Source: Strigamia acuminata (lineage: Eukaryota). From it: a DNA stretch of 64,000 nucleotides. Both the position numbers and the translations under genes were made by a program. The DNA lies in the NCBI GenBank assembly GCA_949358305.1, contig OX442314.1, positions 7,316,001 to 7,380,000 on the forward strand, in the 5' to 3' direction. The notes beneath the pieces are model-generated. The model was not told the origin of the DNA. It saw only the letters and a list, made by a program, of their open reading frames with translations, and searched no databases. This document shows, piece after piece, positions 3,330-55,107 of this stretch (position 1 is its first letter; every line of letters starts with the position of its first letter).

Positions 3330-3406
3330 CCGGGTGGCCCACATAAAAGCGGCCCGAAAATGTGTGTATGTAATATTATGGGGCCGCTTTTATGTGGGCC
3401 ACCCGG
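3330..3406. mobile_element. 77-bp mini-MITE, Tc1/mariner type
   Basis: Perfect 26-bp TIRs CCGGGTGGCCCACATAAAAGCGGCCC and a TA duplication. The empty site ACTAGCTG is at about 40013. Confidence 0.8.
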
Positions 3407-3439
3407 TAGCTGTGACCGGCCATCCGTTGCTGTGGCTCA

Positions 3440-3951
3440 TAAATAAATCTCGTGGAAATAAATCCCGTGGAAATAAATCCCGTGGAAATAAATCCCATGG
3501 AAATAAATCCCGTGGAAATAAATCCCGTGGAAATAAATCCCGTGGAAATAAATCCCGTGGAAATAAATCCCGTGGAAATAAATCCCGTGGAAATAAATCC
3601 CGTGGAAATAAATCCCGTGGAAATAAATCCCGTGGAAATAAATCCCGTGGAAATAAATCCCGTGGAAATAAATCCCGTGGAAATAAATCCCGTGGAAATA
3701 AATCCCGTGGAAATAAATCCCGTGGAAATAAATCCCGTGGAAATAAATCCCGTGGAAATAAATCCCCTGGAAATAAATCCCGTGGAAATAAATCCCGTGG
3801 AAATAAATCCCGTGGAAATAAATCCCGTGGAAATAAATCCCCTGGAAATAAATTCCGTGGAAATAAATCCCGTGGAAATAAAACCCATGGAAATAAATCC
3901 CGTGGAAATAAATCCCGTGGAAATAGATCCCGTGGAAATAAATCCCGTGGA
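3440..3951. repeat. 15-bp minisatellite (GTGGAAATAAATCCC) x about 34
   Basis: Directly visible. About 8 units at 40048-40168 and about 4 at 53159-53221. Confidence 0.97.
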
Positions 3952-4395
3952 ATCTTGTGTTGTATTTACGCCCAATAGAAGTTGCTGATTTTCCAAAAAA
4001 GCATGTTTTTACCTGTCACAGGTGTGATATCCATATGAAAACCATATAACAACAGTCCCCTATTCAAATGCAATGTTGTGTCAAAATTTCAAAGCAATCG
4101 GTGAAGAACTTTCGGAGATTTGAGGTCAGTAACAGACAAACATACATTTTTATCTATATAGAATACAGTAAACACCTGTAAAAGCTGGGTGCGTCTTATA
4201 ATCGGTGATATCTTAGAACGAAAAAATGTTAACATGCAGTTTGCAATATGCAAAACGCCCAAAATCTACCTCATATACAGTGTTAGAAAAAGGTTTGAGA
4301 CCACTCCAAGTTTCTTGGTTGTAAGTCAAATTTTGACTTACGTGATAATAATACATGATAATAAAGTATTGTATAAAATTATCTGACAATAGCTC

Positions 4396-6262: not shown

Positions 6263-6816
6263 AGATCAAATCAAATTAAAGAAAAAAAAATTGTTCAAAA
6301 AATGCCATTTATGGTGGAAAAAGGTTCGAGACCAATTGCAAGAGCTGATATTTCATTCAAGGCAATTTTACCCCAAATCATCATTGCTGATCCAACAACA
6401 CTGAACTGGCCAAAAAAATGAAGAGAATAAATTTATTTTAGATGGACCTGATGGTCTTCAAGACTGTTTGTATGATTTTCATCAATCACCAAATCTATTT
6501 TTTGCTGGTAGGTGATTAATGACTTAGGGTGAAATTGCCTTGAATGAAACATCAACTCCTGCATATATGTTTCACAAAACACTGCATATGTTTCAGAAAA
6601 CTCTCCATATGTTGTTAAAGTATTAATGTTTTAAAAATTCTTTCTATGAAGTCATGCATCTGAAGTTTTCATCCTGACCTTTCAAATATTTTTCAGAAAA
6701 ATCAAAGGACCTAAATTCTTACCTTTTAATTACATTACATAATGAATTTCCTCACAAACCATGTCACCAGGATCTGAAGGTAATAATTATTTATTATTTA
6801 TTGCATTCAACACTCC

Positions 6817-9800
6817 TGCTGTGTTCGGACTTCACTGCATGTTTTGTGTAGTGACGTTATCTTTGCCTCAGGCGCTGTACCCCCAGCGCCACCTTGTAGC
6901 TTGACCCCGAATAAACTTCACTTGTTAGTTCTTAGCCTAATATGACTGACCTTTCATTTCAACCATCCTCAACATAATTTGTTATTAGTAAGATATATAC
7001 TAAATGGCGACGAGATAAGGATCCGAAATCCACGTTCAACTAATGAATCCAGTAGCGACGCAAGTTTTTTCGTGTTTTTCGAACTTTTTGAGCGCTTTTT
7101 CGGCCCGTTGCTGACCACGCCGTCTCGACGTTAGGCCTACGTTCTATTGTCTCGTTTTCCTCGCGTTTTCGTACTCAACGCCGACTTTTGCCATCAATAT
7201 GTCAGCTCTAAAAGGGACGCCGCGGGAATACGATCCAACAGAGGATTGGGGCCTATATTGCAAGCGTATGACAAGTATTTTTGCTTGCAATAAGATCGTC
7301 GATGACCAGGAGAAGGTCCATACGCTCTTGTCGTACGTCGGCATGCCAACCTTCAAGCAGCTGGACACGCTCGCGGCGCCGAAGGAAGCTGCTGAATTGA
7401 AGTACGCGGATCTAGTGGCTTTGATGCAAAAAAATGCACGCGCGAAGCCGCTCGTGCTGGGAGAAATTCGCCGTTTTCACCGCCGTGATCGACTGCCGAA
7501 TGAAACCGTGCTGGAGTATTCTCTCGCTCTTCAGGACCTGGCCCAAAACTGTGAGTTCGCCAATAAAACCAACGAATTAAGAAATCGCTTTCTTTGTGGC
7601 CTCCAGAATGAGCAAGTGCAACAGGCGCTCACGTTAAAAAAAGATTTGACGTTCGACGACGCAGTCGAGTTCGCTGCCGCTGCTGAAGTGTCGCAAAAGG
7701 AATTTTCGACGATCGCGACGCAGAATGCATCGGCGCTGCCGGTGCACAAACTCCACCACGACTCCAAACCACGTCACGATGCGTCAAGGGGTAGAAAACG
7801 CTCCTCGAGGGGCACTACCTCGTTTCAACCAGGCCGCCAACCATCCAACTCGAAAGGAAATGTGTCGGCGTGTTCTGCTTGCGGCAGTAAGTCGCACACG
7901 CGTGAAGCGTGCCACTTTCGCGATGCCACGTGCCACGGATGCGGAAAAACTGGCCACATCAAACCAGTTTGCCGGTCGGTCTTGAAGTCACCAGCTCCAG
8001 TCCATGCAGTCGAGATGCCACAACAGCTCACGTACTACGCTGTCGAGCCGGATTTGACGACGACCGTCAACGCGATTGGCATTAAAGCCACACAACCAAT
8101 TATTTTGGCCATTAAAATTGCTAATGTCAATCTCCTAATGGAAATGGACACGGGAGCAGGCGCTACATTTATAAATCTCGAAACTTATACTAAATATTTT
8201 TCAAATTTTCCATTGCAGCCCCTTCCGGTCCAGATGAACACGTACGGCGGCACAACACTCCGAATGGAAGGGGTTTGCGAAGTTCCGGTTCGTCATCGTG
8301 ATCGCGATTTTCGTTTGCCGTTGTGTGTGGCGACTCACGGCCCCATTCCACTTCTTGGCCGCGACTGGCTCGAAGCATTTGGTTTGCTGTCGAAAACTGG
8401 CGACCTGGTGGGCGCGGAAGTATTTTCGTTGTCCACATCAACGCCATCGCCCGAGAAACTCGATACACCGTCGTCCAACAGATTGGACGAGATTTTGGCA
8501 CGCCATGCCGACGTTTTCCGAGACGAAATAGGCTGTTATAATGTCCACAAGGTCCACATCGACATCGATCCGACTGTTCAGCCGATTTTCCTGAAAAATT
8601 ATCCGGTTCCGCTCGCAATGAAGCCACGACTGGAGGAGGAGCTGCGCCGACTGCAATCCTTGGGTATCATTACACCTGTCGCCTCTTCCAAGTGGGCGAC
8701 ACCAATTATGCATGTCCTAAAATCAGATGGCACACTTAAGATAGCGGGATGCTATAATAGGACCATAAATAAAGCGGTTCTCCCCAACTCTTATCCTTTG
8801 CCTCTCTTCGACGATGTCGCAGCAAAGTTGTCAGGCGGTGAGACATATTCCATTTTGGATATGAATTCCGCCTACAATCAGCTCGAATTAGATCAGGAGA
8901 GCAAAGAAGTGTGTACAATTAATACCCACTTGGGTCTATTTACAGTGAACCGGCTCTTCTATGGAATTTCCAGCGCGCCAGCCATTTTCCAACGCGAGAT
9001 GGACAAATTAACAGCCAAAGTCGAGAGTACACAGCCGTTCATTGACGATTCGGCCGTGACTGGTGCCACAAACGCAGCCCACTTATGCAACCTGGATCAA
9101 CTATTGGGTGCATTTAATAAGGCGAATTTAACTTTGAATAGGAAAAAGTGCAAGTTTTTGCGTTTGTGCGTGCAATTTTTAGGGCTGAACATTTCCAAGC
9201 AAGGAATCACGCCCATCGACTCTAAGCTGGCTCCACTTCGCAACGCCATGCAGCCCAACGATGTGTTATCATTGAAATCGTTTCTGGGGCTCATAAACTA
9301 CTATGGCAGATTTATTAACAATTTATCTACATTATTAGAGCCGCTTTACCGCCTGACGCGCGACGACACTCCGTGGACTTGGGGACCTGAACAGCACAAG
9401 GCCTGGACCAAGGTGAAGGCTGCAGTGACTGTTGATTCGGCGTTGGCGCACTACGACGCGAAGAAGCAACTTTATTTGACCGTTGACGCCTCGCCTGTCG
9501 GTGTGGGCGCCTTTATTTCCCACGTAGAAAATGGAATCCATCGCCCAATTGCCTTTGCCAGTTCCCTCTTGTCCAGCGCGCAGAAAAATTATGCGCAAAT
9601 CGACCGCGAAGGACTCGCGATCGTTTATGGCGTCCGCCGCTTCCACCACCACCTGTTTGGAAGAAAGTTTATTTTGCGAACTGACCATAAACCGCTCGTG
9701 GCAATTTTTGGAGAGAAGAAAGGATGCAATCAAATTGTCGCCGCTCGCCTGCACCGGTGGGCAATTTTCCTAAGCGCCTATGATTATGCTATCGAGCATG

Positions 9801-11543
9801 TGCCTGCTGTCGACAACCAAATTGCAGACGGATTGTCTCGCAATCCTCAACCCGTAGTCGACGGTCGAGAAGACCTCGACATGCATGTTAACGAAATTTT
9901 TTCCGTTTCTCTCTCTCAGTTTCCGGTATCGCAGGCAGCTTTACGTGCAGCATACGACGCAGACGCCCAATTGCAAGCAGTTCTGCAGTGCATCCAAGAC
10001 GAATGGAAATCGAAGACACCTGACCTAATAAATTTTTATAAGCACAGGTCCGCCTTTTCCACACATGGATCATTCTTGTTCTTGTCGGAGCGTTTGGTCG
10101 TGCCAGAGCAGCTTCGCCGGGCAGTCCTGACGGAGTTGCACGCAGGACATTTTGGAATCGTGCGCACCAAGTCACTCGCTCGTTCAACAGTTTGGTGGCC
10201 GTCAATCGACCGTGACATTGAGTCGATGGTCCGTTCGTGCGACGTGTGCCAGCGCGCACTTCCGGATCCCCCTAAGACGTCCGACTTGCGTTGGCCCATT
10301 CCCGACGAAATTTGGGGGCGAATCCACCTCGATTTCGCCGGCCCCTTTCATGGCAAAATGTTCCTGTTGGCTGTGGATGCGCGCACCAAGTGGTGCGAAG
10401 TTCGTATGATGACCGCCACTACCTCGAAAGCAACAATTGCGGTTTTAAAATGTTGGTTTAAACGTCACGGCTTGCCGATCCACGTTCATTCCGACAATGG
10501 GCCGCAATTCACTTCAGCGGAATTTGTTGACTTCCTGTCACGGAACGGCATCCGACAAACTCGTTCACCGCCTTTCCACCCAGCTACCAACGGAGCAGTG
10601 GAAGGCTTCGTGAAGACATTTAAAAATCAAGTCGGGAAATTTCTAAATTTGAATTTGAGCATTTCAGAAGCCGTTGACCAATTTTTGATTGCCTATCGCT
10701 CGACGCCGCACGTTTCTACACGGACTACGCCGTCCGAGGCATTTCTACAACGAACTGTTCGAACTAGATTACATTTGTTGAACCCCCGCTTAATGCCGGA
10801 GCCAACAACTGTGGAAACGCGCCGTTCCTTCGAGCCTGGGGAATTGGTGTTCGCGCGCGACTATTCGCACGCCGCGAGATGGGTTCCTGGAATAATATCG
10901 CAGAAGACATCGTCCACCACGTACGATGTGGCCGTCGGAAATGCCATAATTTGGAACCGACATGCGGACCAGCTCCGAAGACGCCAGACTTTGCACGCCC
11001 AAACTCCGGAGGGGGGAGGGAATCGCGGACATTTTCCTTTGATAATAGACGACTCAAACCTCGGTAACACACCGCCAGTTGTACAACCGCAAGTCCTAGT
11101 TGCTCCTCCCAATTCACCCAATCTCCCAAACGTTCGTAATGCTTCTCCAGCTCCTACACCTCCTCCTGTTCCCGTCAATACTCCTGTTGTGCCGTACCGC
11201 CATCCCCAGCGTATTCGCAACCCGACACAATTTTACGGATATAATAACAGTGATTAAGTGTATTTGTTTTTATTAATCGAATTGGTACATTGTCTATCGT
11301 GAATGAATTCTATTATTGTATTTGTGATTTGATTAATGTGCCATTAATGGGGAATGATGCTGTGTTCGGACTTCACTGCATGTTTTGTGTAGTGACGTTA
11401 TCTTTGCCTCAGGCGCTGTACCCCCAGCGCCACCTTGTAGCTTGACCCCGAATAAACTTCACTTGTTAGTTCTTAGCCTAATATGACTGACCTTTCATTT
11501 CAACCATCCTCAACATAATTTGTTATTAGTAAGATATATACTA
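6817..11543 (+). mobile_element. Full-length Ty3/Gypsy LTR retrotransposon, Mag-like, in intron 8 of ENaC copy 1
   Basis: 186-bp LTRs at 6817-7002 and 11358-11543 read as identical. TSD ACTCC, with the empty site in copies 3/4. PBS TGGCGACGAG at 7005-7014; purine tract before the 3' LTR. Confidence 0.95.
7199..11257 (+). CDS. Single-ORF Gag-Pol polyprotein, 1352 aa
   Basis: Two CCHC knuckles, protease MDTGAG, RT FIDD, RNase H VDASPVGVGA, integrase HHCC and D..D(SDNG)..E. Confidence 0.95.
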   Translation: MSALKGTPREYDPTEDWGLYCKRMTSIFACNKIVDDQEKVHTLLSYVGMPTFKQLDTLAAPKEAAELKYADLVALMQKNARAKPLVLGEIRRFHRRDRLPNETVLEYSLALQDLAQNCEFANKTNELRNRFLCGLQNEQVQQALTLKKDLTFDDAVEFAAAAEVSQKEFSTIATQNASALPVHKLHHDSKPRHDASRGRKRSSRGTTSFQPGRQPSNSKGNVSACSACGSKSHTREACHFRDATCHGCGKTGHIKPVCRSVLKSPAPVHAVEMPQQLTYYAVEPDLTTTVNAIGIKATQPIILAIKIANVNLLMEMDTGAGATFINLETYTKYFSNFPLQPLPVQMNTYGGTTLRMEGVCEVPVRHRDRDFRLPLCVATHGPIPLLGRDWLEAFGLLSKTGDLVGAEVFSLSTSTPSPEKLDTPSSNRLDEILARHADVFRDEIGCYNVHKVHIDIDPTVQPIFLKNYPVPLAMKPRLEEELRRLQSLGIITPVASSKWATPIMHVLKSDGTLKIAGCYNRTINKAVLPNSYPLPLFDDVAAKLSGGETYSILDMNSAYNQLELDQESKEVCTINTHLGLFTVNRLFYGISSAPAIFQREMDKLTAKVESTQPFIDDSAVTGATNAAHLCNLDQLLGAFNKANLTLNRKKCKFLRLCVQFLGLNISKQGITPIDSKLAPLRNAMQPNDVLSLKSFLGLINYYGRFINNLSTLLEPLYRLTRDDTPWTWGPEQHKAWTKVKAAVTVDSALAHYDAKKQLYLTVDASPVGVGAFISHVENGIHRPIAFASSLLSSAQKNYAQIDREGLAIVYGVRRFHHHLFGRKFILRTDHKPLVAIFGEKKGCNQIVAARLHRWAIFLSAYDYAIEHVPAVDNQIADGLSRNPQPVVDGREDLDMHVNEIFSVSLSQFPVSQAALRAAYDADAQLQAVLQCIQDEWKSKTPDLINFYKHRSAFSTHGSFLFLSERLVVPEQLRRAVLTELHAGHFGIVRTKSLARSTVWWPSIDRDIESMVRSCDVCQRALPDPPKTSDLRWPIPDEIWGRIHLDFAGPFHGKMFLLAVDARTKWCEVRMMTATTSKATIAVLKCWFKRHGLPIHVHSDNGPQFTSAEFVDFLSRNGIRQTRSPPFHPATNGAVEGFVKTFKNQVGKFLNLNLSISEAVDQFLIAYRSTPHVSTRTTPSEAFLQRTVRTRLHLLNPRLMPEPTTVETRRSFEPGELVFARDYSHAARWVPGIISQKTSSTTYDVAVGNAIIWNRHADQLRRRQTLHAQTPEGGGNRGHFPLIIDDSNLGNTPPVVQPQVLVAPPNSPNLPNVRNASPAPTPPPVPVNTPVVPYRHPQRIRNPTQFYGYNNSD

Positions 11544-12789
11544 ACTCCAATGGAGTAATTGTATGCAAAGATTAGTCAAAGAACATTTTGTCAATTATGG
11601 ATAAATACTATACACATCATTGTGCATAATAATAATATTTAGTTTTTCCTAAATAATCTGGATGAAGAGGTTAACATTTTGGCACCTTTGACTTTAACGT
11701 ATGATTGGTGGAATTTAGTAACACTTCGAGCACTTAAGGCAATAAATAAAACAAATAATACTTACATGCTTTTATTTTGACTTATTTTGATTTTATGAAA
11801 TAGACTATACGAAGAAATACAAAGAAAAATCCATGTGAGCAAAACAAAAGTTCTTATCTCAAGTGTAAAAATGCTTGCATCCAAAACAATTTGTTTCAAA
11901 CTGTTAACTGCAGGTAAGCTAATCCAGACACATCTCAATTACGATTTTATTCTGTTTGCAACACAGTTGTTCAAAAAACACCTAGCCATTTCAGTTCAGT
12001 TACATGCTACAGTTGTTTGTAAATGTTTCAGATTACCTTATTTCTGGAAGCCGGACTTGCCAGTTTGTAACACAACAACAGAAATTACAACCACTCATTT
12101 AATGTATTTAAAGAATTTTGACTCAAATCACAAACAATGCAAATGTAGACTGCCTTGCGAAAATACTTTTCACAAATTTGTTTTGCATGGGAACGAAAAT
12201 AAATTATTGCCTTTTTCTGCCACATTAATACATATTGAATTCTCTGATACTTTCTTAGAGAGTATAGAAGAGCAACAGGCGTATCCACTATCTCAATTGT
12301 TAAGCGATGTCGGTAGCATCATAGGATTGGGTTTAGGAATGTCTTTGCTGTCTTTCTACATTTGCGTTTTAAACACTTATACTTGGTGTAAGAATAAGAG
12401 CTTTTTGATGTGGTTCCAAAAGAAGAAATAAAATATGAAATTGTTAAAGCTATCTATGCGCAACAACAATTTAAATCTTTTTCAAATGTTAGTTCTAAGC
12501 TTAAGTGTATTGCTAATCGTTTACAGTTGTTCATTTCAAAGCTAGTTTATAATGCCACAAAATTAAATTGTTGCACTAATTTTTGCACAAAACGTCTGTT
12601 CACAATGCAGCGAAATATTGTTGTTACTCAGAGCTCTACTGCATATTAATGTTAAAGTTGCTTAGCAACGTTCTTAACATGCAATAAGAACTTGTTCAAA
12701 AATTTTTACAACGTTACGGTGTAGTAAAGTTTGCTACTTTTGCACTTCAAAATAAACTCTCTACAATCATTGAGTTTTCACATCAGAAT

Positions 12790-18008: not shown

Positions 18009-18077
18009 CGAATGACGTCACAAGTTATAACGCATTGTGAACGTTGTCATTCGAGTATTTACTACGAATGACGTCAC
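18009..18077. promoter_or_regulatory. Two CRE/ATF palindromes (TGACGTCA) in a 13-bp direct repeat; candidate internal promoter for ORF3
   Basis: CGAATGACGTCAC at 18009 and 18065, between the pol stop and the ORF3 leader exons. Confidence 0.4.
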
Positions 18078-18128
18078 GAGATTGCTCTCTCGGATCTTTC
18101 GGGTAAACCCAAAAGGTGAAAGTCAACG

Positions 18129-27498: not shown

Positions 27499-27700
27499 TC
27501 GAACGAGTCGAACGAAGGGTACGAAAACGGCACGAAACCCAGCGCCGCCGATCTGAAACCGCTGTGCTGTGTTTGCGGCTGTTTGGGTCCGCTGCGCCGC
27601 TCTAAGTGTCACGTCAAACAATATTGTTCGTTGGGGCATCACAAGATCGATTGGAAAGCCGCGCACAATAAGGAATGCAAATGTTTGGTCAAAATAGATG
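27499..27700 (+). pseudogene. PDCD2: PDCD2 exon-1 fragment (MYND finger)
   Basis: Matches 43587-43782 (LCCVCGCLGPLR.SKCHVKQYCSLGH.KIDWK..H). The splice donor is mutated (GT to AT). Confidence 0.85.
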
Positions 27701-29549: not shown

Positions 29550-30742
29550 TGGCAGTTTGGCAATTTGGCAGTTTCACTACTAAGCAACAAGCAACAGCTT
29601 TTCATTAATAGCCGAGAGCACTGACGAGAATAAAACAAACACATTGACATTACTACATAATATTACACATTACACACAAATATCAAAAAGACATTTGGAG
29701 TCACAACAAAAAGAGACATAAAAGAACGTAAAAAAGACAAAAAGAGACATAAAAGAGACATAAAAGAACGTAAAAAAGACAAAGATGTCGTAAATATGAT
29801 ATGACAATGTTATAAAAATGACATAACGATGTCATTAAAATGACCAAAATGACAATTCATCCTGCAAAGGGACAGTAGTGGTAGAAACTGTTTGTTTACA
29901 CTCAACTCAAATGTACTGTACACACACTGCCATTAAACCGGAAAAAAATGTGTGATGTAGATAACGATTTGACCAGAGAGCATACAGGTCAGGTTGGTAA
30001 ACAAAGTGTCAAAATGAAAAACAAGTACAACAACTAAACAAAGAATTTTGAAAATCAATAGCAGTTCTACGTGAAACAAGAATTTACAGTCAATTCTGAA
30101 CTCACAGCACGGAGAGACGCCGAATAACAAGCAGGTATGTACCTTTTCACACCACCAAAAGCAAGTAAAAAGATCATAACATCTACACTTATTTCATTCA
30201 ATAATTAAATTGTTCATAATCATCAATTGTCATTACAGAAAAAACCTTGGATTTAAATACGAATAAGATACAATGCAAAATAATAATTTGGCGAGGCGAC
30301 TACGTCCTGCAATTCACCGATTATTAAAGGATGATGCAAATAAACTGAGATGCAACATAATTGGCTTTGATGACTTTGTCAATAGCAAACATCGTGGGGA
30401 TAAGCGTCATGTGTTTTGGCTTCTTTTATTTTTATTTTGCACATGCATGTTCGCTTATCAGACTTACGATAGGATAATGCATTACTTAAGTTATCCCACG
30501 GTTGTTGACGTAACGAGCAGCTCTGAAGATGTAATTTTACCAAAATTGATGATCTGCAGTGGCAATACTAAAGAAATGGTCAGACTTTGGAATAAAAATC
30601 AAGAAAAACTTCAATTAAAAACCAAGACATGCTTTAACTCGTTGCAAACATTAATGGCAATCCCAACTTATACCATAGAAGAACTTTGGAAAGCGACTAA
30701 TTTGACGAAAGAAGTAGTGAGCGTAAAAATAAAAGTAAAAAA

Positions 30743-31805
30743 TGCGACGATCCGGGTTTTTACTTAATAAATCGGAGAGACTTATAAAGCAATCGTCGTA
30801 GAGATGCCGTACAGGACTTCTACTCTGTGGCCAAATGTTTGTCTAGGGGAATGATTTTACACAGAGTAAAGGAAAAATTAGATAGTTTTAATCGTTCAAA
30901 ATACAAAGGAGGTATTATTTAAAATGTTTGGGGTCGATCTGGCTTCTTCTTCAAATGTACACTCACAGTTGACCGTTGGCTCCAAGATGGCGTCGATGGC
31001 GTCGTGTGAGCGCGGGATTTTAGCGGAGTAAACTCAACGCTAAAATACCTTGCTGAATATACTAAAATCCTCGTGGAGCACGCTCGACACGAGAATACGT
31101 CTTGCACACAGCGGTTCGATTATTACGGAGCAAGCTCGACGTAACAATCGGTCTTTACACAAATCGCTTTGTGGAGTTAAACTCGACACAAAGCCTTCAA
31201 ACTAACAGAGTAAACTCGATGTTAGTTTCACACAGAAATGGCTTAAATTACGCGTAGTAATTCAAGCTAGAAAGTTGCTATTCCGTACAGTGGGTACAGA
31301 CCAGCGATGAAACTCAATTCGTCCAAGAATCACAGATCACACTTTGCAGTTTTGGCAGAAGTTTGACACGGTTGTGAACAGTTTGGAGGTAGAATCAAGA
31401 GTGCGGGAAGAGTGGGCCAAAACCGTTTGGCTCGCTCCTAAATCTGCTCAGAAAAGCTGCGCAGATGACGAGTTGCACAACGATCACACACGGCCGCCTT
31501 CGGGTCGTGTGCAACAATTGAGCCGGGCACGCGCGAGGGGAAGGGATGCTCCGCCCAGGCACACGCCTAGCAGCATCATCAAAGCAATGCACGCTGCAGC
31601 GCGATTGGTTGACGCTGTTGCTGGGCCAAAACTTGCTGCAAAACACAATATTATTTGGGTAATATTGTGTCTTGTTTTATATTTTATTAATGTATGTTTT
31701 ATTTCAATTTACATTAAAACAAAACATATAAGCTTGTTGAATATGTTTATAAGACAATTTGGAAATATGGTGCGCACTCAAATAGGAATATTTGAGGTCA
31801 CCACA
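30743..31805 (-). mobile_element. Solo LTR related to the 13102 element
   Basis: Termini TGCGACGATCCGGG...GAGGTCACCACA with a poly-A target duplication; lies in intron 1 of copy 2. Confidence 0.8.
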
Positions 31806-32493
31806 AAAAATAATAATAAAGAAAGTGTATTTTTAAATGTATTAAGATTGCGTTATTTAAACCCTTGATTTCATGCAGAGATATTCAAATTTAAACAAAA
31901 CGGCTGTTTTGACAGAAACGGACAATTTTTTTGGAATATGCCCAACATTTCAATTTAGTAATTATAAACAAATATTTAGCACTATCTATTTCAATATGCT
32001 TTATCATTTATTGACATAGCTAAAGCTTCTAGTGACTCATTTGTTGGAGAACTGATAGTAAAAATAGAAAAGAATTATGATTACGTATGCCTTGCCGAGC
32101 CATACAGAGTAAATTTAATAAATTAAAATTATGATTTGTATTACTCCGTAATTTTTTTCTTTTTACACTTAGTTTTTCCTTATGTTCTATGATTTTGGGA
32201 GACAATATGATGTAGCACATCAATATATTGGTACAACAACAACAATTTATTTCAGTTATAACAAAGTAAACTTTTATTTGAGAATGAAAAATTACTTCAC
32301 AGAATCTAATTTTATTTTAACTTTTTAGTTCATATTTCTTAATTCACGTATAAATTCATGTTCCAGAGAGAAGGAATATAAAGAATGCTATCGGAGTTGC
32401 CTATTAAACAAGTTTAAAAACGATCTGACATGCAGGTAGGAAAAGAATGTTTTTACAATAAAAAAAAATCTAATCATTAAAAATCTTCTTTAA

Positions 32494-32895
32494 CCTTCCC
32501 ATAGCCAAGCCTAGTTTCCACCATTGCTAGCTAAGGTCGGTCAAATCGGCCTTCTTTTAAAATGCTTCTGCGCATGTGCAGAATCACATTTTTCCTGGTG
32601 CAATCGCATTTTTCCTGGTAAAAGCACATGTTTTAGGACTAATTTTAATACGCCACCTAGTGCAAACAGATGGCAAAGCAGTGTACGGCGCTCCCATTAA
32701 GGGTGTTTTATGTTATAAATATTAAATTATCTTAATAATAATTGAAAAACTATTTGTATTTAGACATTATAAAATAAGAAAAAAAAGTTTTTGAGGAATA
32801 CAAGTTAACCTCATTAATTAATTATCAGAAAAAAAAGAATTACAGTGATTTTTCCACTTCTGTAATTTTTTTGACCTACCATGGCTATGGGAAGG
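32494..32895. mobile_element. piggyBac-like MITE
   Basis: TTAA|CCTTCCCATAGCCA...TGGCTATGGGAAGG|TTAA. Confidence 0.85.
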
Positions 32896-34297
32896 TTAAA
32901 GATTTCCCTTCATGAAAATTGATTTACCACTTTGCAAATGTTCAAACAATACAAACGAAAAATACAGTGCTGTAAAGAAACTGATTGAAACCATAAACCC
33001 AAGTTCTGATTGTCAATGTAGCATTCCATGTCAACAAATAACTATTACACCATCCATTGATACAGGAATAGGAGATGATGACAAAACCTTATCTGTATCT
33101 TTAGTAATATCTGATGACAAAATTAGTGTGTATGAAGAACGATACATCTACAACGTTATTGCTCTACTGTCAGATTTAGGAGGCAATCTGGGCCTGTTTC
33201 TTGGCCTATCATTAATTTCATTACCTGAAATTACTTGGTATTTATATTATGTTGCAACAAACATTCACCCAAAAACTCCCGCCATTAGGTTTCGCCATCT
33301 ATATGAGATATGCAAGAAGAAAGTCAATGCAAGCAAAGAGGAAACCTTGACAACTGGAGTCTTAGATAAGCTTAAGTTTGTGCTGGTATTTCTGACAGCA
33401 GGATTCACTTTGTATTGCCTGCACATTCGTTTCAATTACTACATTGATGAACCGGTAACAAAAACGGTTAGAATAGTTGAACGTCAATACACCGAGTTTC
33501 AGTCAATCACGATCTGTGGTGAAAAACAAAATAATGACATGGATGAAGCCAGATTACATTTACTGAAACATGCTAACAAAACCTGCAATAAAATATCACC
33601 ATGGCAATTGTATGGCAAAAACTTGTCACTAAACAAAATCTGGAAAATACTTAATGTCCATGACAACATTGATATTAAGAATGAGGTATGTCGCATGCTA
33701 TATGCTGTATATTGTATGTTACATTTTTTTCAAAAACAACTACAACCATGAAAATTATTATTTTTGTAGAAACATTTGGGATACAAAACAGCGCTAAACA
33801 TATCAATGAATCCTATGCCACTTCCTTTTGGTAATTGTTCTCAAATAAATACAGGTATTAGTTTACAGATTTTGTTTCTTTAAGTTGATGCTTCATATTA
33901 CCAAACTTCTAAAATCTGAATTTTTGATGGTTTATTTTATTATTAAAAATAAAAATCAAAAACCTGATGCATTAAAAAATTGATTCTGATTCCAATGTTT
34001 TTCAGAAAAATCAGTCGACCTATTTGCTCAACTTTGCATTACATTAAACAATTTAATTCCTTCAAAACAATGTGACCAGCATCTAAAGGTATACCATAAC
34101 ATCATTTAATATTTAGTAGGAACTTCATTTATTTATACACTATTTTCCCTTATTTTTACACTAAAAGAAACTAAATTTTACACGACCCCACTTTCTTTTT
34201 TTTACCTATCCTAAACTAACCTAACCTAAACCAGTCCTTGATGTGTATGAATTTTTTAGTGTAGAAATAAGAAAAAACAGTGTTGGTATTCAGAAAT

Positions 34298-37532: not shown

Positions 37533-40500
37533 ATGCGGAATAATAATTTGGTGAGGAGACTACGTCCTGCAATTCATCAATTGTTGAAGGATGATGCAAA
37601 TACATTTCGATGCAACTTAGTTGGTTTGGATGATTTCATTAACAGCAGAAAACATTGGACAAAGCGTCACACCTGTTGGCTACTTTTATTCTCATTTTGC
37701 ATGTGCATGCTCACTTATCAGACTTACGATAGAATAATGCATTATTTAAGTTATCCTACGGCTGTTGATGTAACGAGTAGATCGGAAGAGGTCGTTCTAC
37801 CAAATTTGTTGATATGTAATAGCAATACAAAAGAAATGTCGAGACTTTGGAATAAAACTAACTCAAAATCCAAACCATCACGCTTCGACTGCTTGAAGAT
37901 GGTAAATACACTGATGGGAAACCCAACTTCCAGTCTAGAGGAAATTTGGGAAGCGAGTAATTTGACGAAAGAAGTAGTGAGCGTAAAAATAAAAGTAATA
38001 AAGATGGAATAAAGTACGGAGTAATTTTTAATAAGTTAAAAAAAATTTATTTGAATTTGTTTATTTTGTATAGGGATATTCTAATTCAAACAAAACATTT
38101 GTTCTGACCGAAATGATCAATCATTATGGAATATGCTCATCAATTCAATTTCGTAAGTATAATCAAAATTTACCACCATCAATTTGAATGCACTTTATTA
38201 TTTATTGATATATAGCTAAGGCATCTAGCGAATCATTTGTTGGACAAGTCGTAACAGTTACAATAGCAAGTTATGATGGCATATGCCCTTCAGCACCATA
38301 CTTGGTAATTTTAATTAATTGCAAAAATAATTGTAGTCTACTTTTCTTTCCTTTGCCCTTAGCTTGGTCTTCATTTCTTCGATTTTGGAAAACATTTCGG
38401 GATGGGAATACAATATGCCGGTGGAACATCAAAAGTTTATTTGAGCTATAACAAAGTAAAATTTTATCAAACAACGAAAATTCCTATGCTTTACCTTATT
38501 TTATTCAAACATTTTAGTTCATTTTTCTGAATTCACCAATAAATGAATGCTCCGGTGAAGACGAATACAGAGAATGTTATCGGAGGTGTCTATTGAAGAA
38601 ATTTAAGACGTTAAGATGCAGGTAAGAAATCAAAACAGTCAACAGACAGCGTGGCTGCACATGTTAAATCACATTGTTTGTTTGTTGTTTGTTTGAGTTA
38701 CCATTTCCTACGTCAGTTCCGTTCGTTTCCTGCTTGATTTCCGTTCGATCCCTACGTTTTTTCCGTTTTCTACGTGATTTTCGTTTTCTACGTGATTTTC
38801 GTTTTGTACGTAATCTCCGTTCCTCATGACATTCTGGTCCAATTGTTGCAGCCCGCTTAGTGGAGAGAACGATGTAGTTTCACATAAAAATATAATGATT
38901 ACAAATTTTCCAATAAAGATTTCCCTTCATGAAGATCGATTTGCCGCTTTGCAAATGTTTAAAGGACATACAGATGCATCTTTTTGCTGCAATGCAGTTG
39001 ATTCAAACTACAAATCCCATTACTGTTTGTCTCTGTCGACGTCCATGTCATCAAATAACTTTTACACCTTCCACTGAAATTAGCGCAGAAGATGATAAAA
39101 GTACAGTATCTGTATCTCTAGCAATTGCTAATGACAAAATTAGCGTGTATGAAGAACGATACACGTACGACGCAATTGCTCTTCTGTCAGATGTAGGAGG
39201 CAATCTGGGCCTGTTCCTAGGTATCTCTGTAATATCATTACCTGATATCATTTGGTATTTATATTATGTTGCAACAAATATTCACCGAAAGACATCCGTT
39301 GATAAGATTCGCCCTCTGTACGAGATATGCAAGAAGAAAGTCACTGCAAACAAAGAGAAAACCATAACAAATGGAGTCTTAGAAAGGTTTAAGTTTGCGC
39401 TAGTATTTGTGACTGTGGGATTCACTTTATATTGGTTGCAAATTCGTATCGACTACTATATTGATGAACCGGTAACAACAATGGTTAGAATAGTTCAACG
39501 TCGTTACACCAAATTTCCGTCAGTCACCCTCTGTGCTGAAAATCAAAATAATGCCATGGACGAAACCAGATCACACTTCCTGAAACACACTAACAAAACC
39601 TGCAATGAGATATCGCCTTGGCAATTGTTCAATCACGAATTGTCACTGGTCGAAATCTGGGAAACACTCAATGTCCATGACGCAATTGATATTGAGAATG
39701 AGGTATGTCTGTACTAGTAGTATGTTATATTCCCAAAACAAACCCATCAATGAAAATTATTGTTTTTGAAGGTGTTATATGGATATAAAATTAAATTAAA
39801 TATATCAACGCATACTATTCCACTTCCTTTTGGTAATTGTTCACGAGTTAACACAGGTACTTGTAATTGTAATGTGCTTTTGCGTTCAATTTATGTGTTA
39901 GTTTTTATTATTGTCACTTTTTACCACCCAGCTTCACCCTGAGTTTTTATTATGGCATTTATTAACAGCATTACCGTATTTCATCAATTCTTAGATGCAC
40001 TTTTATTACCATACTAGCTGTGCCCGGCCATGCGTTGCTGTGGCTCATAAATAAATCCCGTGGAAATAAATCCCGTGGGAATAAATCCCGTGGAAATAAA
40101 TCCCGTGGAAATAAATCCCGTGGAAATAAATCCCGTGGAAATAAATCCCGTGGAAATAAATCCTGTAGAATTGTGTGTTGTATTTACGCCCAATAGATGG
40201 CGCTGTTTTTTCAAAAATGCATGTTTTTACCTGTCACAGGTGTGACATCTATATAAAAACCATATAACAGCAGTCGCCTATTTGAATGCAAAAATAGCTC
40301 AAATCAAATTAAAGAAATAAAAAAATTGTTCAAAAAATTCCATTTATGCTGGCAAAAAGTTTGAGACCAAATGCAAGGGAATCTTACCCCAAATCATCAT
40401 TGCTGATCCAACAACAAGTAACTGGCCAAAAAAGTGAAGAGAATAAATTTAATTTGGATGGACCTGATGGTGTTCAACACTATTTGTATGATTTACATCG

Positions 40501-41756
40501 ATCACCAAATCTATTTTTTGCTGGTAGGTGATTCATGACTTGGGGTGAAATTGCCTTGAATGAAACATCAACTCCTGCATTTGTTTCACAAAATTCTGCA
40601 TATTTTTCACAAAACTCTGCATATGTTGTTGAATTATTAGTCTTTTAAAAATTCTTTCTACGAACTCATGCATCCGAACTTTTTATCCTGACCTTTCCAA
40701 TACTTTTCAGAAAAATCAAAGGACCTAAATTCTTACCTTTTAATTACATTAACTAATGAATTTCCTCACAAACCATGTGACCAGGATCTAAAGGTAATAT
40801 TTATTTATTATTTATTGCATTCAACACTCCAATGGCGTTATTAAATGCAAAGATTAGTCAAAGAACATTTTGTCAATTATGGATAAATACTTGACACATA
40901 ATTGTGAATAATAATAATATTTAGTTTTTCATAAATAATCTGGATGAAGACGTTAACATTTTGGCACCTTTGACTTTAAAGTATGATTGGTGGAACTTAG
41001 TAACTCTTCGAGTACTTAAGGCAATAAATTAAACAAACAATACTTACATGCTTTTATTTTAACTTATTTTGATTTTAATGAATTAGACTATACAAAGAAA
41101 TACAAAGTACAATCCATGTGAGCAGAACAAAAGTTCTTATCTCAAGTGTAAAAATGCTTGCATCCAAAACAATTTGTTTCAAACTGTTAACTGCAGGTAA
41201 GCCAATCCAGACACTTCACTTTTTACACATATCAATTACGATTTTATCCTGGTTGCAACACATACTGTAACTGTATATACGCATACACCAGTTGTTCAAA
41301 AAATACCTAGGCGGTGCAGTTAAGTTACATGCTACAATTGTTTTCAAATGTTTCAGATTACCTTATTTCTGGAAGCCGGACTTACCAGTTTGTAACACAA
41401 CAACAGAAATTACTACCGCTCATTTAACATATTTAAAAAATTTTGACTCAAATCAAAAACAATGCAAATGTAGACTGCCTTGCAAAAATACTTTTCACAA
41501 ATTTGTTTTGCATGGGAATGAGAATAAATTATTGCCTTTTTCTGCCACATTAATAGCTATTGAATTCTCTGATACTTTCTTAGAGAGTATAGAAGAGCAA
41601 CAGGCATATCCGACATCTCAATTGCTAAGCGATGTCGGTAGCATCATAGGATTAGGTTTAGGAATGTCTTTGCTGTCTTTCTATGTTTGCATTTTAAACA
41701 CTTATACTTGGTGTAAGAATAAAAGGTTTTCGATGTGGTTCCAAAAGAAGAAATAA
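37533..41756 (+). CDS. Intact tandem two-subunit DEG/ENaC (pickpocket/ASIC-like) channel, 11 exons, about 794 aa
   Basis: Exons 37533-37994, 38074-38152, 38216-38304, 38363-38455, 38518-38621, 38919-39702, 39772-39856, 40711-40793, 40925-41020, 41087-41196 and 41357-41756 sum to 2385 nt and read open. TM1, PxxxxC, GxC, Cys-rich and TM2 motifs each occur twice. Confidence 0.85.
40330..40530 (+). mobile_element. Tc3/Tc1 transposase relic in ENaC intron 7 (also about 6300-6510 and 53690-53900)
   Basis: Translates KFNLDGPDGVQHY, resembling the Tc3 FNLDGPDG motif. Confidence 0.6.
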
Positions 41757-49928: not shown

Positions 49929-52900
49929 ATGCGGAATAATAATTTGGTGAGGAGACTACGTCCTGCAATTCATCGATTGTTGAAGGATGATGCAAATACA
50001 CTTCGATGCAACTTAGTTGGTTTGGATGATTTCATAAACAGTAGAAAACATTGGACAATGCGTCACACCTTTTGGCTACTTTTATTCTCATTTTGCACGT
50101 GCATGCTCACTTATCAGACGTACGATAGAATAATGCATTACTTAAGTTATCCTACGACTGTTGATGTAACGAGTAGATCGGAAGAGGTTGTTTTACCAAG
50201 TTTGATGATATGTAGTCGTAATACGAAAGAAATAGCCAGACTTTGGAATAAAACTAACGCAAAATCCCAACCTTCACGTGTCGACTGCGCGAGCATGGTA
50301 AATGAACTGATGAAAATCCCAACTTACAATCTAGAGGAAATTTGGGAAGCGACTAATTTAACGAAAGCAGTAGTGAGCTTAAAAATAAAAGTAAAAAGAT
50401 GGAATAAAGTAATTTTTAATGAGCTAAAAACAATTAGTTCAATCTTTTTATTTTGCATAGGGATATTCTAATACAAACAAAACAATTGTTCTGGGAGAAA
50501 TGATCAATCCACTTGGAATATGCTCATCCATTCAATTTGGTAAGTATAATAAAAAATTTACTACTATCAACTTCAATACATTTTATTATTTATTGATACG
50601 TAGCTAAGGCATCTAGCGAATCTTTTGTTGGACAAGTCATAACAGTTAAAATAGCAAGTTATGAGGACATATGCCCTTCAGCACCATACTGGGTAATTTT
50701 AATTAATTGAAAAATAATTGTTGTCTACTTTTCTTTCCTTTACCCTTAGCTTAATCTTCATTAGGCGCATTCGAAAAGTCATTAAAACGAGTGTAAACGT
50801 GTTTACACTCGTTTCCACACGACATTTACACGAATTAATTCGTGTAAATGTCGTGTAAACTGGTTAAACGGAAACGGCCTGTACGCCACGTTTCCGTTTA
50901 AAATCTCCGTGCAACGAGTTTTCTCGTTGAAATCGGGTCTTGCTGGCAGCCATCTTGGATTTTCGTTAGATCGGTTGGAACGATGTCGATCGCAAGAACA
51001 ATTTTTTAGCAGGTATTAGCCGCATTCTTGCGATCGAATGCGGCCGATGTTCGACCGCATTTGTACGATCGAATACGGCCGACGTTCGACCGACGTTCGG
51101 CCGCATTTGTACAATCGAATGCGGCCGACGTTTGTGCGATCTGATGCGGCCGGTGTTCGGCCGCATTTGTGCGATTGAGGCGGATGTTCAGCCGATTCCC
51201 GTTCGGAATTAAATATTAATAATACAAATAATTAAAATAAATTTACATTTTATAATCATGTTTTTATAATCTCCTGTTTTTTTTTTTAGAGTAAACAACA
51301 ACAATAATGACTATGGTTATTATTTGGACTAATTTAATATTTACACTTGAATTTACACTACTGAATTTTACACAGAAATTTATTTTGAAACTCGAAAATT
51401 GGGTCGTTTAACTTGAAATTTACACTACCAGTTGCACTGGTCGTTTAGTGCAAATTACTTTTCGAATGCGCCTATTCTTACGATTTTGGAAAATGTTTCG
51501 GGGTGGGACAACTATATGCCGGTGAAACAAAAGAAGTTTATTTAAGTTACAACAAAGTAAAATTTTATCAAAGAACGAAAATTCCTATGCATCACCTTAT
51601 TCTATTCAAAAATTTTAGTTCATTTTTCTGAATTCACCAATAAATGAATGCTCCGGCGAAGATGAATACAGAGAATGTTATCGGAGGTGTCTAATGAAGA
51701 AATTTAAGAAGCTACCATGCAGGTAAGAAATCGAAATAATTGCAAAGGGGCAGAGTCCCTACTATGCCAAACGTACAACTACGTGCAGAGATGAAGAAAT
51801 GTTTGTGTTGTGTGTTTAGATGAGGTTGTGGGAGTTGTGAGTGTGATTTCTGGTTTTGTTGTTGTTTGTATTTGCTGTGAGTATTGGTTTGTGATGAGAG
51901 AAGTAAGAAATGTGTCGCGGAGATTCCAAATACCAAAACGTTTTCTTGTTATTACGCGCATTTTGAGTTCTTAAACGCGTATCAACACAATACGCGTTTA
52001 TATTGGGTTGTCAACAGACAGCTGTGGCTGCTTGTGTCACATTGTTTGTTTGAGTTTTCATTCCCAACGTCATTTCCATTCCTGTGTCATTCCTGTCCAA
52101 TTGTTGCAGCCCGCTTATTTGTTAGTGCAGAGAAAGATGTAGTTCTACATCAAAAAATAATGATTACAAATCTTCTATTAAAGATTTCCTTTTATGAAGA
52201 TCGATTTACCACTTTGCAAATGTTCGAAGGACATATACATGCATTATCGTGCTGCAAAGCAGTTGATTGAGATCACAAATCCCATTACTGTGTGTATGAA
52301 GAACGATACACGTACGACGCAATTGCTCTTCTGTCAGATTTAGGAGGCAATCTAGGCTTATTTTTCGGCCTAGCGTTAATTTCGTTACCTGAACTCACTT
52401 GGTATTTACATTATGTTGCAACAAACATTCACCGAAAAACATCCGTCAATAAGATTCGTCTTCTGTACGAGATATGCAAGAAGAAAGTCGTTAAGAATAA
52501 AGAGCAAACCACGACATGTGGTGTCTTAAAAATACTTGCGCTAGTATTTGTAACTGCGGGATTCACTTTATATTGCTTGCAAATTCGTATCAACTACTAC
52601 TTCGATGAACCAGTAACAACAATGGTTAGAATAGTTCAACGTCGCTACACCAAATTTCCCTCATTCACAGTCTGTGGTGAAAACCAAAATGATGATATGG
52701 ACGAAGCCAGATCATATTTACTGAAACACACCAACAAAACTTGCAATGAAATATGGCCCTGGCAATTGTTCAGCAACGAATAGTCACTGGAAGAAATCTG
52801 GGAAACACTCAATGTCCATGATACTATTGATATTGAGAATGAGGTATTCTAGTATTTTATATTAACCAAAAACAAATGACAATGAATGAAAATTATTGTT

Positions 52901-55107
52901 TTTGTAGTTGTTATATGGATATAAAATTAAATTAAATATATCAAAGCATACTATTCCACTTCCTGTTGGTAATTGTTCACGAATTAACACAGGTAATTGT
53001 AATGTCCTTTTGCGTTCAATTTAAGTGTTAGTTTTTAATATTGTCACTCTTTACCACCCAGCTTCATCCTGAGTTTTGATTATGGCATTTATTAACAGCA
53101 TTACCGTATTTTATTGTTTCTAAGATGCACTTTTATTCCCATACGTTGCTGTGGCTCATAAATAAATCTCGTGGAAATAAATCCCGTGGAAATAAATCCC
53201 GTGGAAATAAATCCCGTGGAATCTTGTGTTGTATTTACGCCCAATAGATGGCGCTGTTTTTCCAAAAAAGCGCGTTTTTACCTGTCACAGGTGTGACATC
53301 CATATAAAAACCGTGTAACAACAGTCCCCTATTCAAACGCAATGTTGTGTCAAAATTTTAAAGCAATCGGTGAAGAACGTTCGGAGATTTGGGGTCAGTA
53401 ACGAACGAACATACATTTTTGTTTATATAGAACACAGTAAACACCTTTAAAAGCAGGGTGTGTCTTATAATCTGTGATATCTTAGGACGAAAAAATGTTT
53501 TCATGTACTTATCAATGCGCAAAAGGCCCAAAATCTACCTCGTATACAGTGCTGGAAAAAGGTTGGAGACCACTCCAACTTTCTTGGTTGTAAGTCAAAT
53601 TTTGACTTACATGATAGTAAGGTATTGTATAAAATTATATGACAATAGTTCAAATTAAATTAAAGAAATAAAAAAAATGTTTACAAAATGCCATTTATGC
53701 TGGAAAAAAGTTTGAGACCAAATGCAAGAGCTGATATTTCATTCAAGGCAATTTTACCCCAAATCATCATTGCTGATCCAACAACACGTAACTGGCCAAA
53801 AAAATAAAGAGAATAAATTTATTTTGGATGGACCTGATGGTGTTCAACACTATTTGTATGATTTTCATCAATCACCAAATCTATTTTTTGCTGATAGGTA
53901 ATTAATGACTTGGAGTGAAATTGCCTTGAATGAAACATCAACTCCTGCATTTATTTCACAAAACTCTGCATATGTTGTTTAATTATTAGTCTTTTAAAAA
54001 TTCCTTCTACAAACTCATGCGTCTGAAGTTTTTATCCTGACCTTTCCAATACTTTTTAGAAAAATCAAAGGACCTAAATTCTTACCTTTTAATTACATTA
54101 ACCAATGAATTTCCTCACAAACCATGTGACCAGGATCTGAAGGTAATATTTATTTATGGAGTATTATTTATTGCAGTCAACACTCCAATGGAGTAATTGA
54201 ATGCAGCAAAGATTAGTCAAAGAACATTTTGTCAATTATGAATAAATACTAGACACATCATTGTGAATAATAATAATATTTAGATTTTCCTAAATAATCT
54301 GGATGAAGACGTTAACATTTTGGCACCTTTGACTTTACAGTATAATTGGTGGAACTTAGTAACACTTCGAGCACTTAAGGCAATAAATTAAACAAACAAT
54401 ACTTAGATGCTTTTATTTTAACTTATTTTGATTTTATGAAATAGACTATACAAAGAAATACAAAGCACAATCCATGTGAGCAGAACAAAAGTTCTTATCT
54501 CAAGTGTAAAAATGCTTGCATCCAAAACAATCTGTTTCAAACTGTTAACTGCAGGTAAGCTCATCCAGACACTTCACTTTTCACACATCTCAATTCCGAT
54601 TTTATCCTGTTTAAAACACATACTGTATATACGCATACACCAGTTGTTCAAAATCACCTAGCCCTTTCAGTTCAGTTACATGCTACAGTTGTTTGTAAAT
54701 GTTTCAGATTACCTTATTTCTAGAAGCCGGACTTGCCAGTTTGTAACACAACAGCAGAAATTACTACCGCTCATTTAACATATTTAAAGAATTTTGACTC
54801 AAATCAAAAACAATGCAAATGTAGACTGCCTTGCGAAAATACTTTTCACAAATTTGTTTTGCATGGCAATGAGAATAAATTAGTGGATTTTACTTTCACA
54901 ATAATAGCTATTGAATTCTCTGATAATTTCTTCGAGAGTATAGAAGAGCAAGAGGCATATCCGACATCTCAATTGCTAAGCGATGTCGGTAGCATCGTAG
55001 GATTAGGTTTAGGAATGTCTTTGCTGTCTTTCTACATTTGCATTTTAAACACTTATACTTGGTGTAAGAATAAGAGCTTTTCTATGTGGTTCCAAAAGAA
55101 GAAATAA
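49929..55107 (+). pseudogene. Two-subunit DEG/ENaC-like gene, copy 4, pseudogene
   Basis: MITE in exon 4, a deletion of about 118 bp in exon 6 (about 52291), and premature TAG stops at 52781 and 54721. Confidence 0.88.
50763..51473. mobile_element. PIF/Harbinger-like MITE in exon 4 of copy 4
   Basis: 17-bp TIR AGGCGCATTCGAAAAGT. Removing it with one 3-bp ATT duplicate restores the exon length. Confidence 0.75.

What the first reader, a model, noticed from the sequence alone, without database searches (positions are those of the whole stretch)
37533..41756. Natural head-to-tail fusion of two DEG/ENaC subunits in one 4-TM polypeptide
Seen: a roughly 794-aa spliced ORF with TM1-ectodomain-TM2 twice. 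The first TM2 (YEERYTYDAIALLSDVGGNLGLFLGISVIS) and the second TM1 (FALVFVTVGFTLYWLQIRIDYYIDEPVTT) lie in the same exon (38919-39702), joined by a basic linker of about 45 aa with no stop or intron. So this is not two genes merged by prediction, and all four paralogues share the layout. Established: DEG/ENaC/ASIC subunits have two TMs and form trimers. Inference: a covalent heterodimer cannot fill a three-fold pore alone. It needs a monomeric partner (2+1), cross-linking of channels (3 chains giving 2 pores), linker cleavage, or a different stoichiometry.
Basis: partly seen in the sequence, partly recalled or inferred. Interest (0 to 1): 0.9.

Follow-up and report, generated by a model that had tools for sequence, protein, structure and literature searches.

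The report
Two ENaC subunits in one chain
This gene, likely from a centipede, carries two complete DEG/ENaC sodium-channel subunits head to tail in one unbroken reading frame, so a channel that is normally built from three separate subunits would come two-thirds pre-assembled and likely takes its third subunit from another gene.

Summary
Confirmed at the DNA level. An 11-exon model (794 aa, no internal stop) holds two full DEG/ENaC domains and four hydrophobic segments. The first TM2, a ~40-aa basic linker and the second TM1 lie in one exon. The five introns of each half match in place and phase, so two six-exon neighbours were joined.

It is not a one-off. At least 18 named Strigamia maritima models carry the same junction, some at only ~20-25% identity to each other. 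First and second units form two separate clades, which points to one old fusion and a large radiation. The closest solved relatives are the centipede antennal channels BRTNaC1 and PDPNaC1, single-unit subunits of trimeric channels. Separate three-unit chains exist in decapod crustaceans.

Correction: only this copy of the four in the window is intact.

Not shown: any transcript, the stoichiometry or the stimulus. Best guess: a pre-joined two-thirds of a trimer completed by a single-unit partner (~0.45). My paper searches found no natural DEG/ENaC concatemer.

The parts
37533..37994 (+). Exon 1: ATG, cytoplasmic N-terminus, TM1 of unit 1 (about 37671-37730), start of ectodomain 1
38074..38152 (+). 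Exon 2 (unit 1 ectodomain; counterpart of exon 7)
38216..38304 (+). Exon 3 (counterpart of exon 8)
38363..38455 (+). Exon 4 (counterpart of exon 9)
38518..38621 (+). Exon 5, Cys-rich thumb start (counterpart of exon 10)
38919..39702 (+). Exon 6, the fusion exon: thumb and TM2 of unit 1, linker, TM1 and finger start of unit 2
39175..39267 (+). TM2 of unit 1 (aa about 362-392), canonical D-x-GG-NLG and G-x-S motifs
39268..39390 (+). Basic linker (aa about 393-433), 11 K/R and 4 D/E, no Met, no stop; predicted cytoplasmic
39391..39450 (+). TM1 of unit 2 (third TM of the chain)
39772..39856 (+). Exon 7
40711..40793 (+). Exon 8
40925..41020 (+). Exon 9, GC splice donor (also in copies A and D)
41087..41196 (+). 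Exon 10
41357..41756 (+). Exon 11: thumb and TM2 of unit 2 (about 41619-41702; D-x-GS instead of D-x-GG, G-x-S kept), stop
901..12431 (+). Paralogue A: all 11 exons and splice sites, +1 frameshift in exon 1, LTR element in intron 8
30273..34088 (+). Paralogue B: exons 1-8 open (63% aa identity to C), exons 9-11 absent
49929..55107 (+). Paralogue D: pseudogene (about 710-bp insertion in exon 4, 118-nt deletion in exon 6, two stops)

Best explanation
The gene holds two complete DEG/ENaC subunits in one reading frame, which likely form one four-helix chain that would fill two neighbouring seats of a trimeric cation channel, with the third seat likely taken by a single-unit subunit from another gene. 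SHOWN: two full domains, a one-exon junction, matching introns in both halves, purifying selection, and a family of such genes whose first and second units form separate clades with different TM2 signatures. INFERRED: two tandem six-exon genes fused once in a centipede ancestor, after which the pair was copied and diversified as one module. INFERRED: the channel is a heterotrimer with a fixed order and an asymmetric pore. INFERRED by kinship to BRTNaC1 and PDPNaC1 and by birth-and-death expansion: it serves as a sensory receptor for protons, heat or chemicals. SPECULATIVE: a broadly expressed BRTNaC1-like monomer is the shared third subunit and the fused pairs are the variable part.
For: Gene model and two domains. 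All 5 of 5 intron pairs match in phase and lie within 0-1 residue. dN/dS between C and B is 0.46 (bootstrap 0.36-0.58) over 593 codons, 0.60 in the linker and 0.54 in the unit-2 part. 18 named S. maritima models carry the junction. First units (12 rows) and second units (10 rows) are each one clade, SH-aLRT 95/97 and 90/98 in two trees, with no single-unit row inside either. An AlphaFold model of S. maritima T1JD34 gives two whole subunit folds (43-376, 422-785), pTM 0.61, best match BRTNaC1 Z 20.6, rmsd 4.5 over 330 residues. The Gly of the G-x-S position is kept in 12 of 12 first and 8 of 8 second TM2s. Precedents: engineered ASIC1a concatemers are functional (PMC8871370), and a beta-gamma ENaC dimer lacking its third subunit has been solved and proposed as an assembly intermediate (bioRxiv 2024.05.28.595834). 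BRTNaC1 is expressed across many antennal neuron clusters (PMC12714832). A single-unit ENaC region occurs in S. maritima model T1J5P9. Weak support only: two first units plus one second unit of T1JD34 scored 0.34 against a best control of 0.00 (runs agree in at least 68% of contacts, partner pLDDT at least 59). The mark was reached by 51 of 78 solved and 2 of 108 mismatched pairs, but at 0.60 or under by only 5 of 78 solved pairs and by all 4 mismatches that passed. It may reflect likeness to solved trimers.
Against: No partner was identified or tested. Nothing here distinguishes a foreign third subunit from one supplied by a second fused chain, and the arrangement (1+1+2) fits the latter equally. 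Both folds used a relative that is only about 22% identical in exon 6, not this protein. The second TM2 lost the GG motif in 7 of 8 family members, which could mean a reduced pore role. Three of four copies in the window are broken or truncated. The S. maritima records are automatic gene models.
Confidence: 0.45

Rival explanations
1. The fused chain is self-sufficient and still trimeric. A second chain lends one unit to close the pore and its other unit dangles or seeds a second pore, so three chains give two linked pores (1+1+2 and 1+2+2) or channel clusters.
For: The 1+1+2 arrangement got weak support (0.34 vs control 0.00). The TM2-to-next-unit spacing is long enough and loosely kept, at 103 to about 130 residues. 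The ENaC beta-gamma dimer was seen as a dimer of dimers, with a neighbour's gamma subunit partly filling the empty seat.
Against: It needs two different pores or exposed dangling units. Fixed specialisation of first and second units across the family is more simply explained by fixed seats.
Confidence: 0.25
2. Two fused chains form a four-unit pore with two-fold symmetry, departing from the trimer rule, as two-pore channels do in the voltage-gated family (recalled).
For: A two-unit chain closes a four-fold ring without partners. One paper argues for homotetrameric ASIC1a at the cell surface (PMC4529235; search listing and start of abstract only).
Against: The BRTNaC1 and PDPNaC1 entries hold three chains each, and PDPNaC1 is stated to be a homotrimer. 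Each unit keeps the standard fold. Separate three-unit chains in decapods suggest the trimer rule holds.
Confidence: 0.07
3. The fusion is only a way of co-expressing two subunits. The chain is cut in the linker, or transcripts are split, and the free units assemble as ordinary heterotrimers.
For: The linker is variable in sequence (15 of the 21 listed linker variants change the residue) and the T1JD34 linker has low pLDDT.
Against: No Met between aa 302 and 463, no polyadenylation hexamer in exon 6, and no R-x-K/R-R site. The linker is predicted to be cytoplasmic, out of reach of secretory-pathway proteases. The spacing is conserved across the family.
Confidence: 0.12
4. The product is not a working channel of its own: unit 2 is a pore-dead tether or regulator, or the family is a decaying by-product of tandem duplication.
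For: 3 of 4 window copies are broken or truncated. dN/dS of 0.46 is fairly relaxed. The second TM2 is degenerate.
Against: dN/dS is below 1 with an interval that excludes 1. The frame and both folds are kept across about 20-25% identity. The second TM2 keeps the G-x-S glycine in 8 of 8. Pseudogenes in clusters are also seen in the expanded mite ENaCs (PMC5203786).
Confidence: 0.11

Closest known systems
BRTNaC1 (Scolopendra subspinipes mutilans heat- and proton-gated DEG/ENaC; PDB 8YMR/8YMW; PMC9974506)
   Same: Best solved relative by sequence (E 1e-12 for exon 6; E 8e-7 for exon 11; family profile E 4e-43) and by fold (Z 20.6). It lies in the same clade as both units (support 91 and 98; P0044 taken as BRTNaC1 from its length, matched range and D217/E218).
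   Different: Single-unit 431-aa subunit with three chains per entry. The protein here has two units in one chain, about 20% identity. Its proton-sensing residues were not traced here.
PDPNaC1 (centipede antennal proton-gated channel; PDB 9JF7; PMC12714832)
   Same: Second-best solved relative. Lacks a canonical HG motif, as both units here do. The glycine four residues before the G-x-S glycine (Gly378 in the paper) is present in both units of this gene.
   Different: Homotrimer of single-unit subunits; nine-exon gene.
Human ENaC beta-gamma dimer and heterotrimers (PDB 9BTU; bioRxiv 2024.05.28.595834)
   Same: A two-subunit module proposed to await a third subunit.
   Different: Non-covalent, from separate genes, and only a proposed intermediate.
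Engineered ASIC1a concatemers (PMC8871370)
   Same: Head-to-tail joined subunits that form working trimers.
   Different: Artificial, three identical units. The natural gene has two divergent units (25% identity).
Internally repeated channels of other families (Nav/Cav four-repeat, TPC two-repeat, K2P) - recalled, no call
   Same: Subunit fusion that fixes order and lets repeats specialise.
   Different: There the repeat number divides the four-fold symmetry. Two does not divide three.

Membership tests
DEG/ENaC (Pfam ASC PF00858) | ASC domain above the curated cut-off | tested here: met
   45.7, 77 and 44.7 bits against cut-off 23.6 for exon 1, 6 and 11 ORFs. Two full domains with an own profile.
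DEG/ENaC (Pfam ASC PF00858) | Each unit: TM1, Cys-rich ectodomain, TM2, with the subunit fold | tested here: met
   Four hydropathy peaks and Cys clusters in this protein. Fold shown on relative T1JD34, both halves.
DEG/ENaC (Pfam ASC PF00858) | G-x-S motif in TM2 | tested here: met
   GIS in unit 1 and GMS in unit 2.
DEG/ENaC (Pfam ASC PF00858) | Pre-TM1 His-Gly motif (common, not universal) | tested here: not met
   No HG before either TM1 in the translation. PDPNaC1 also lacks it, and only 43% of insect PPKs have the full motif, so this is not exclusionary.
DEG/ENaC (Pfam ASC PF00858) | One subunit (two TMs) per polypeptide | tested here: not met
   Two units and four TMs per reading frame. 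Each unit is a family member; the chain architecture is the departure.
DEG/ENaC (Pfam ASC PF00858) | Trimeric assembly | tested here: inconclusive
   Weak support only: 0.34 vs control 0.00, on a relative's separated units.
DEG/ENaC (Pfam ASC PF00858) | Cation conduction and amiloride block | not testable with these tools
   Needs electrophysiology.
BRTNaC1-like centipede clade | Groups with BRTNaC1 in a tree | tested here: met
   Clade of 46 rows at support 91 and of 41 rows at 98; quick trees, SH-aLRT only; not an orthologue call.
BRTNaC1-like centipede clade | Heat or proton gating through D217/E218 equivalents | not tested
   The region is too divergent; no residue mapping was done.

The most novel reading that the evidence does not exclude
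Arthropods have repeatedly turned DEG/ENaC trimers into covalently concatenated channels. Centipedes did it with a large, old family of two-unit receptors that pair with a shared single-unit co-subunit, a combinatorial sensory code. Decapod crustaceans did it with three-unit chains that form a whole pseudo-trimeric pore from one polypeptide, the DEG/ENaC counterpart of four-repeat Nav/Cav channels.
Probability: 0.35. Interest if true: 0.9.

Novelty: new variant of a known kind. Interest (0 to 1): 0.78.

Why it matters
DEG/ENaC subunits are described as two-helix chains that form trimers. A natural, selected, expanded family of two-unit chains breaks that rule and poses a symmetry mismatch (two into three) that must be solved by a partner, by cross-linked pores or by another stoichiometry. 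Each outcome is informative and directly testable. It also gives a natural tool for seat-specific roles in heterotrimers. It points to an unexplored sensory receptor family in centipedes, related to the heat and acid sensors of the antenna; S. maritima has no known light-sensing proteins (PMC9974506) and no odorant receptors (PMC5203786). Annotation pipelines may be splitting or discarding such multi-unit genes as merges.

Tried and rejected
No RNA holder was listed. The two runs found are contigs that cover introns too, so they read as DNA and say nothing on expression. Many different contigs lie on the junction (up to 22-23 at one place), a hint of many paralogues, but summed depth is no copy number.

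None of the 40 listed variants across TM2-linker-TM3 makes a stop. 115 more were not shown and only 17 of 333 possible linker changes give stops, so this is weak.

The idea that the linker is recognisably the old N-terminus of unit 2 was tested and not supported (861 of 2000 shuffles scored as high).

A third unit in the flanks was sought in six frames: only partial TM2 repeats behind copies A and D. A shared origin with the crustacean three-unit chains was considered because their last TM2 is also degenerate. The trees place those units outside the centipede clade (long branches, no AU test).

The AlphaFold model of the Penaeus three-unit protein failed (pLDDT 35.6, pTM 0.24) and was not used. 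A word-index search with the family alignment returned only its first sequence. The careful tree did not finish; both trees are quick trees.

Atlas searches gave only single-unit ASC clusters. No genome is held for this window. Earlier scan notes held nothing on fused subunits.

Full report
Observation. The stretch is an AT-rich eukaryotic gene. Eleven exons between 37533 and 41756 splice with nine GT-AG introns and one GC-AG intron to 794 codons and a stop. The same exon ends and splice dinucleotides are found in copy A (11 of 11 exons), in D (all but the start of exon 4) and in B (exons 1-8). Pfam ASC hits the three large exon frames above cut-off, twice in exon 6. A profile from 56 single-unit rows finds two whole domains, aa 40-422 and 427-794 (E 1e-62, 1e-58), and hydropathy gives four peaks of 1.9-2.1 against 1.25 for the next. 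The halves are 25% identical (E 4e-16). The first TM2, the basic linker and the second TM1 sit in exon 6 with no stop, no Met from aa 302 to 463 and no AATAAA/ATTAAA. This is not a prediction merge.

Origin. Introns 1-5 and 6-10 have the same phases (0,1,0,0,2) and fall within 0-1 residue of each other in the alignment. Two six-exon genes were therefore joined, last exon to first exon, with loss of the stop and the spacer (inference). The linker could not be shown to resemble an N-terminus.

The four copies. C (this finding) is intact. A has one extra base in exon 1 (real or an assembly error, not decided) and an LTR element in intron 8. B is open for 594 codons but has no exons 9-11. D is a pseudogene. 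Between C and B, dN/dS is 0.46 (95% bootstrap 0.36-0.58; 593 codons): 0.27 in the first TM2, 0.60 in the 37-codon linker, 0.54 in the unit-2 part. C against A (exons 2-11) gives 0.52. This is birth and death under purifying selection.

Relatives. The best hit to exon 6 is Strigamia maritima T1JEH2, 53% over 99% of the query, so the window is likely from a centipede related to it (inference). A full HMMER search gave 389 representatives, of which the best 150 were listed. Of 30 looked up, 21 are S. maritima models. With T1JEH2, 18 named models of this family carry TM2 followed by a new TM1 region, and some pairs are only about 20-25% identical. The distance from the TM2 aspartate to the next unit's Pro-Cys motif was 103-125 residues in 21 of 23 rows. 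Two rows gave none, and in P0012 and P0034 the pattern caught an earlier proline, so their true value is about 130. In a tree of 102 unit rows, the 12 first units and 10 second units are each one clade (95, 97), with none of the other rows inside. A 55-row mixture-model tree agrees (90, 98). Both are quick trees, hits with stretches too short or without the post-TM1 motif were left out, and P0015, P0019 and P0022 were not looked up by name. First units keep D-x-GG in 12 of 12; second units in 1 of 8 that have a TM2; the G-x-S glycine is kept in all 20. One old fusion followed by seat-specific divergence and expansion is the simplest reading.

Structure and closest known. The solved relatives nearest in sequence are the centipede channels BRTNaC1 and PDPNaC1. 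An AlphaFold model of the complete two-unit S. maritima T1JD34 (pLDDT 65.6, pTM 0.61, 18-row alignment) holds two whole subunit folds, best matched by BRTNaC1 (Foldseek E 2e-18; Z 20.6). The window's own spliced protein was not folded. BRTNaC1 is a heat-activated, proton-dependent antennal cation channel (PMC9974506: abstract, introduction and first results section read). PDPNaC1 is a proton-gated homotrimer without an HG motif, restricted to one neuron cluster while BRTNaC1 is widespread (PMC12714832: sections 7 and 10 and passages; appendix not read). A complex of two first units and one second unit of T1JD34 gave weak support: 0.34, best control 0.00, contact agreement at least 68%, partner pLDDT at least 59. 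Passes this low came from 5 of 78 solved pairs and all 4 passing mismatches, and likeness to solved trimers may explain it.

Mechanism. Each unit looks like a normal subunit, and the family's solved members are trimers, so the chain most likely fills two adjacent seats. Joined ASIC1a subunits work when engineered (PMC8871370, passages), and a beta-gamma ENaC dimer without its third subunit has been solved (bioRxiv 2024.05.28.595834, passages). I put completion by a single-unit partner at 0.45, self-completion with dangling units or linked pores at 0.25, cleavage or split transcripts at 0.12, a non-channel role at 0.11 and a four-unit pore at 0.07. That the two units are made as one chain I put near 0.9. 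A sensory role is inferred from kinship and from the expansion pattern, which resembles that of mite ENaCs (PMC5203786, passages). No transcript, partner, ligand or current is shown.

Other concatemers. The same search turned up separate multi-unit DEG/ENaCs. (1) S. maritima T1IU28, T1IZL2 and T1ITG7 have two to three or more near-alike units in a different clade. (2) Penaeus vannamei XP_069977668 and its cluster, whose other members lie on Logan contigs of 3.4-4.0 kb, have three TM2 segments: a full unit, a miniature middle unit and a full unit. So do P0033, P0111, P0122, P0160 and P0161, which are unnamed and placed with it by alignment, and Halocaridina KAK7028032 has three larger units. 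The middle unit scores weakly against the profile, and the fold attempt failed. (3) Polypedilum KAG5672929 has three pickpocket units in a gene model that may be a merge.

Novelty. Ten full-text searches found no description of a natural fused or concatenated DEG/ENaC. The S. maritima genome paper has no ENaC term in its main text (PMC4244043, term search; supplements not read). The insect PPK survey notes 46 of 578 proteins with three to five predicted TMs, with no mention of fusion (PMC8438182, passages). The decapod chemoreceptor survey mentions ENaCs only briefly (PMC7067487, passages). Vizueta et al. 2020, which covers S. maritima PPK-like genes, was not available and may bear on this, as may subscription papers. 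The sequences sit in UniRef as uncharacterised proteins. Verdict: real, a new architectural variant of a known channel family, interest 0.78.

Noticed in passing
P0060/P0153 (Penaeus vannamei XP_069977668 cluster), P0160, P0161, P0033, P0043, P0111, P0122, P0072: About 1000-aa proteins with three DEG/ENaC units in one chain (full, miniature, full; three larger units in Halocaridina), several on 3-4.5 kb contigs: candidate natural single-chain pseudo-trimers. Deserves its own study.
   Followed up: partly
P0006, P0007, P0008, P0017 (S. maritima T1IU28, T1IZL2, T1ITG7; P0017 not looked up): A second Strigamia-type concatemer family with near-alike units, three or more in two models, in a clade that also holds single-unit rows.
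   Followed up: partly
P0042 (Polypedilum vanderplanki KAG5672929): Three pickpocket units in one 1460-aa gene model with short joins; real fusion or annotation merge not tested.
   Followed up: no
window 6817-11544: LTR retrotransposon in intron 8 of copy A: identical LTRs of about 186 bp, 5-bp target duplication, open 1380-codon gag-pol-like frame (7115-11257); recent insertion.
   Followed up: partly
window 13102-27498: Minus-strand LTR element with 1988-bp repeats (99.9% identical), gag-like (22376-25402) and pol-like (18129-22397) frames, and an unexplained 757-codon frame (14125-16398) that runs into the repeat.
   Followed up: no
window 43248-43766 and 27502-27681: Intronless frame with a MYND finger, PDCD2-like by recalled domain layout, downstream of copy C, and a 3' fragment of it after the element at 27498: the ENaC copies were duplicated with their neighbours.
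   Followed up: partly
window 50763-51474: About 710-bp insertion with terminal inverted repeats and TA ends (MITE-like) in exon 4 of copy D.
   Followed up: partly
window 12727-12950 and 55278-55489: Degenerate partial repeats of the last exon's TM2 region behind copies A and D.
   Followed up: partly
window 40049-40170 and 3441-3952: 15-bp tandem repeat arrays inside an inserted element in intron 7 of copies C and A.
   Followed up: no
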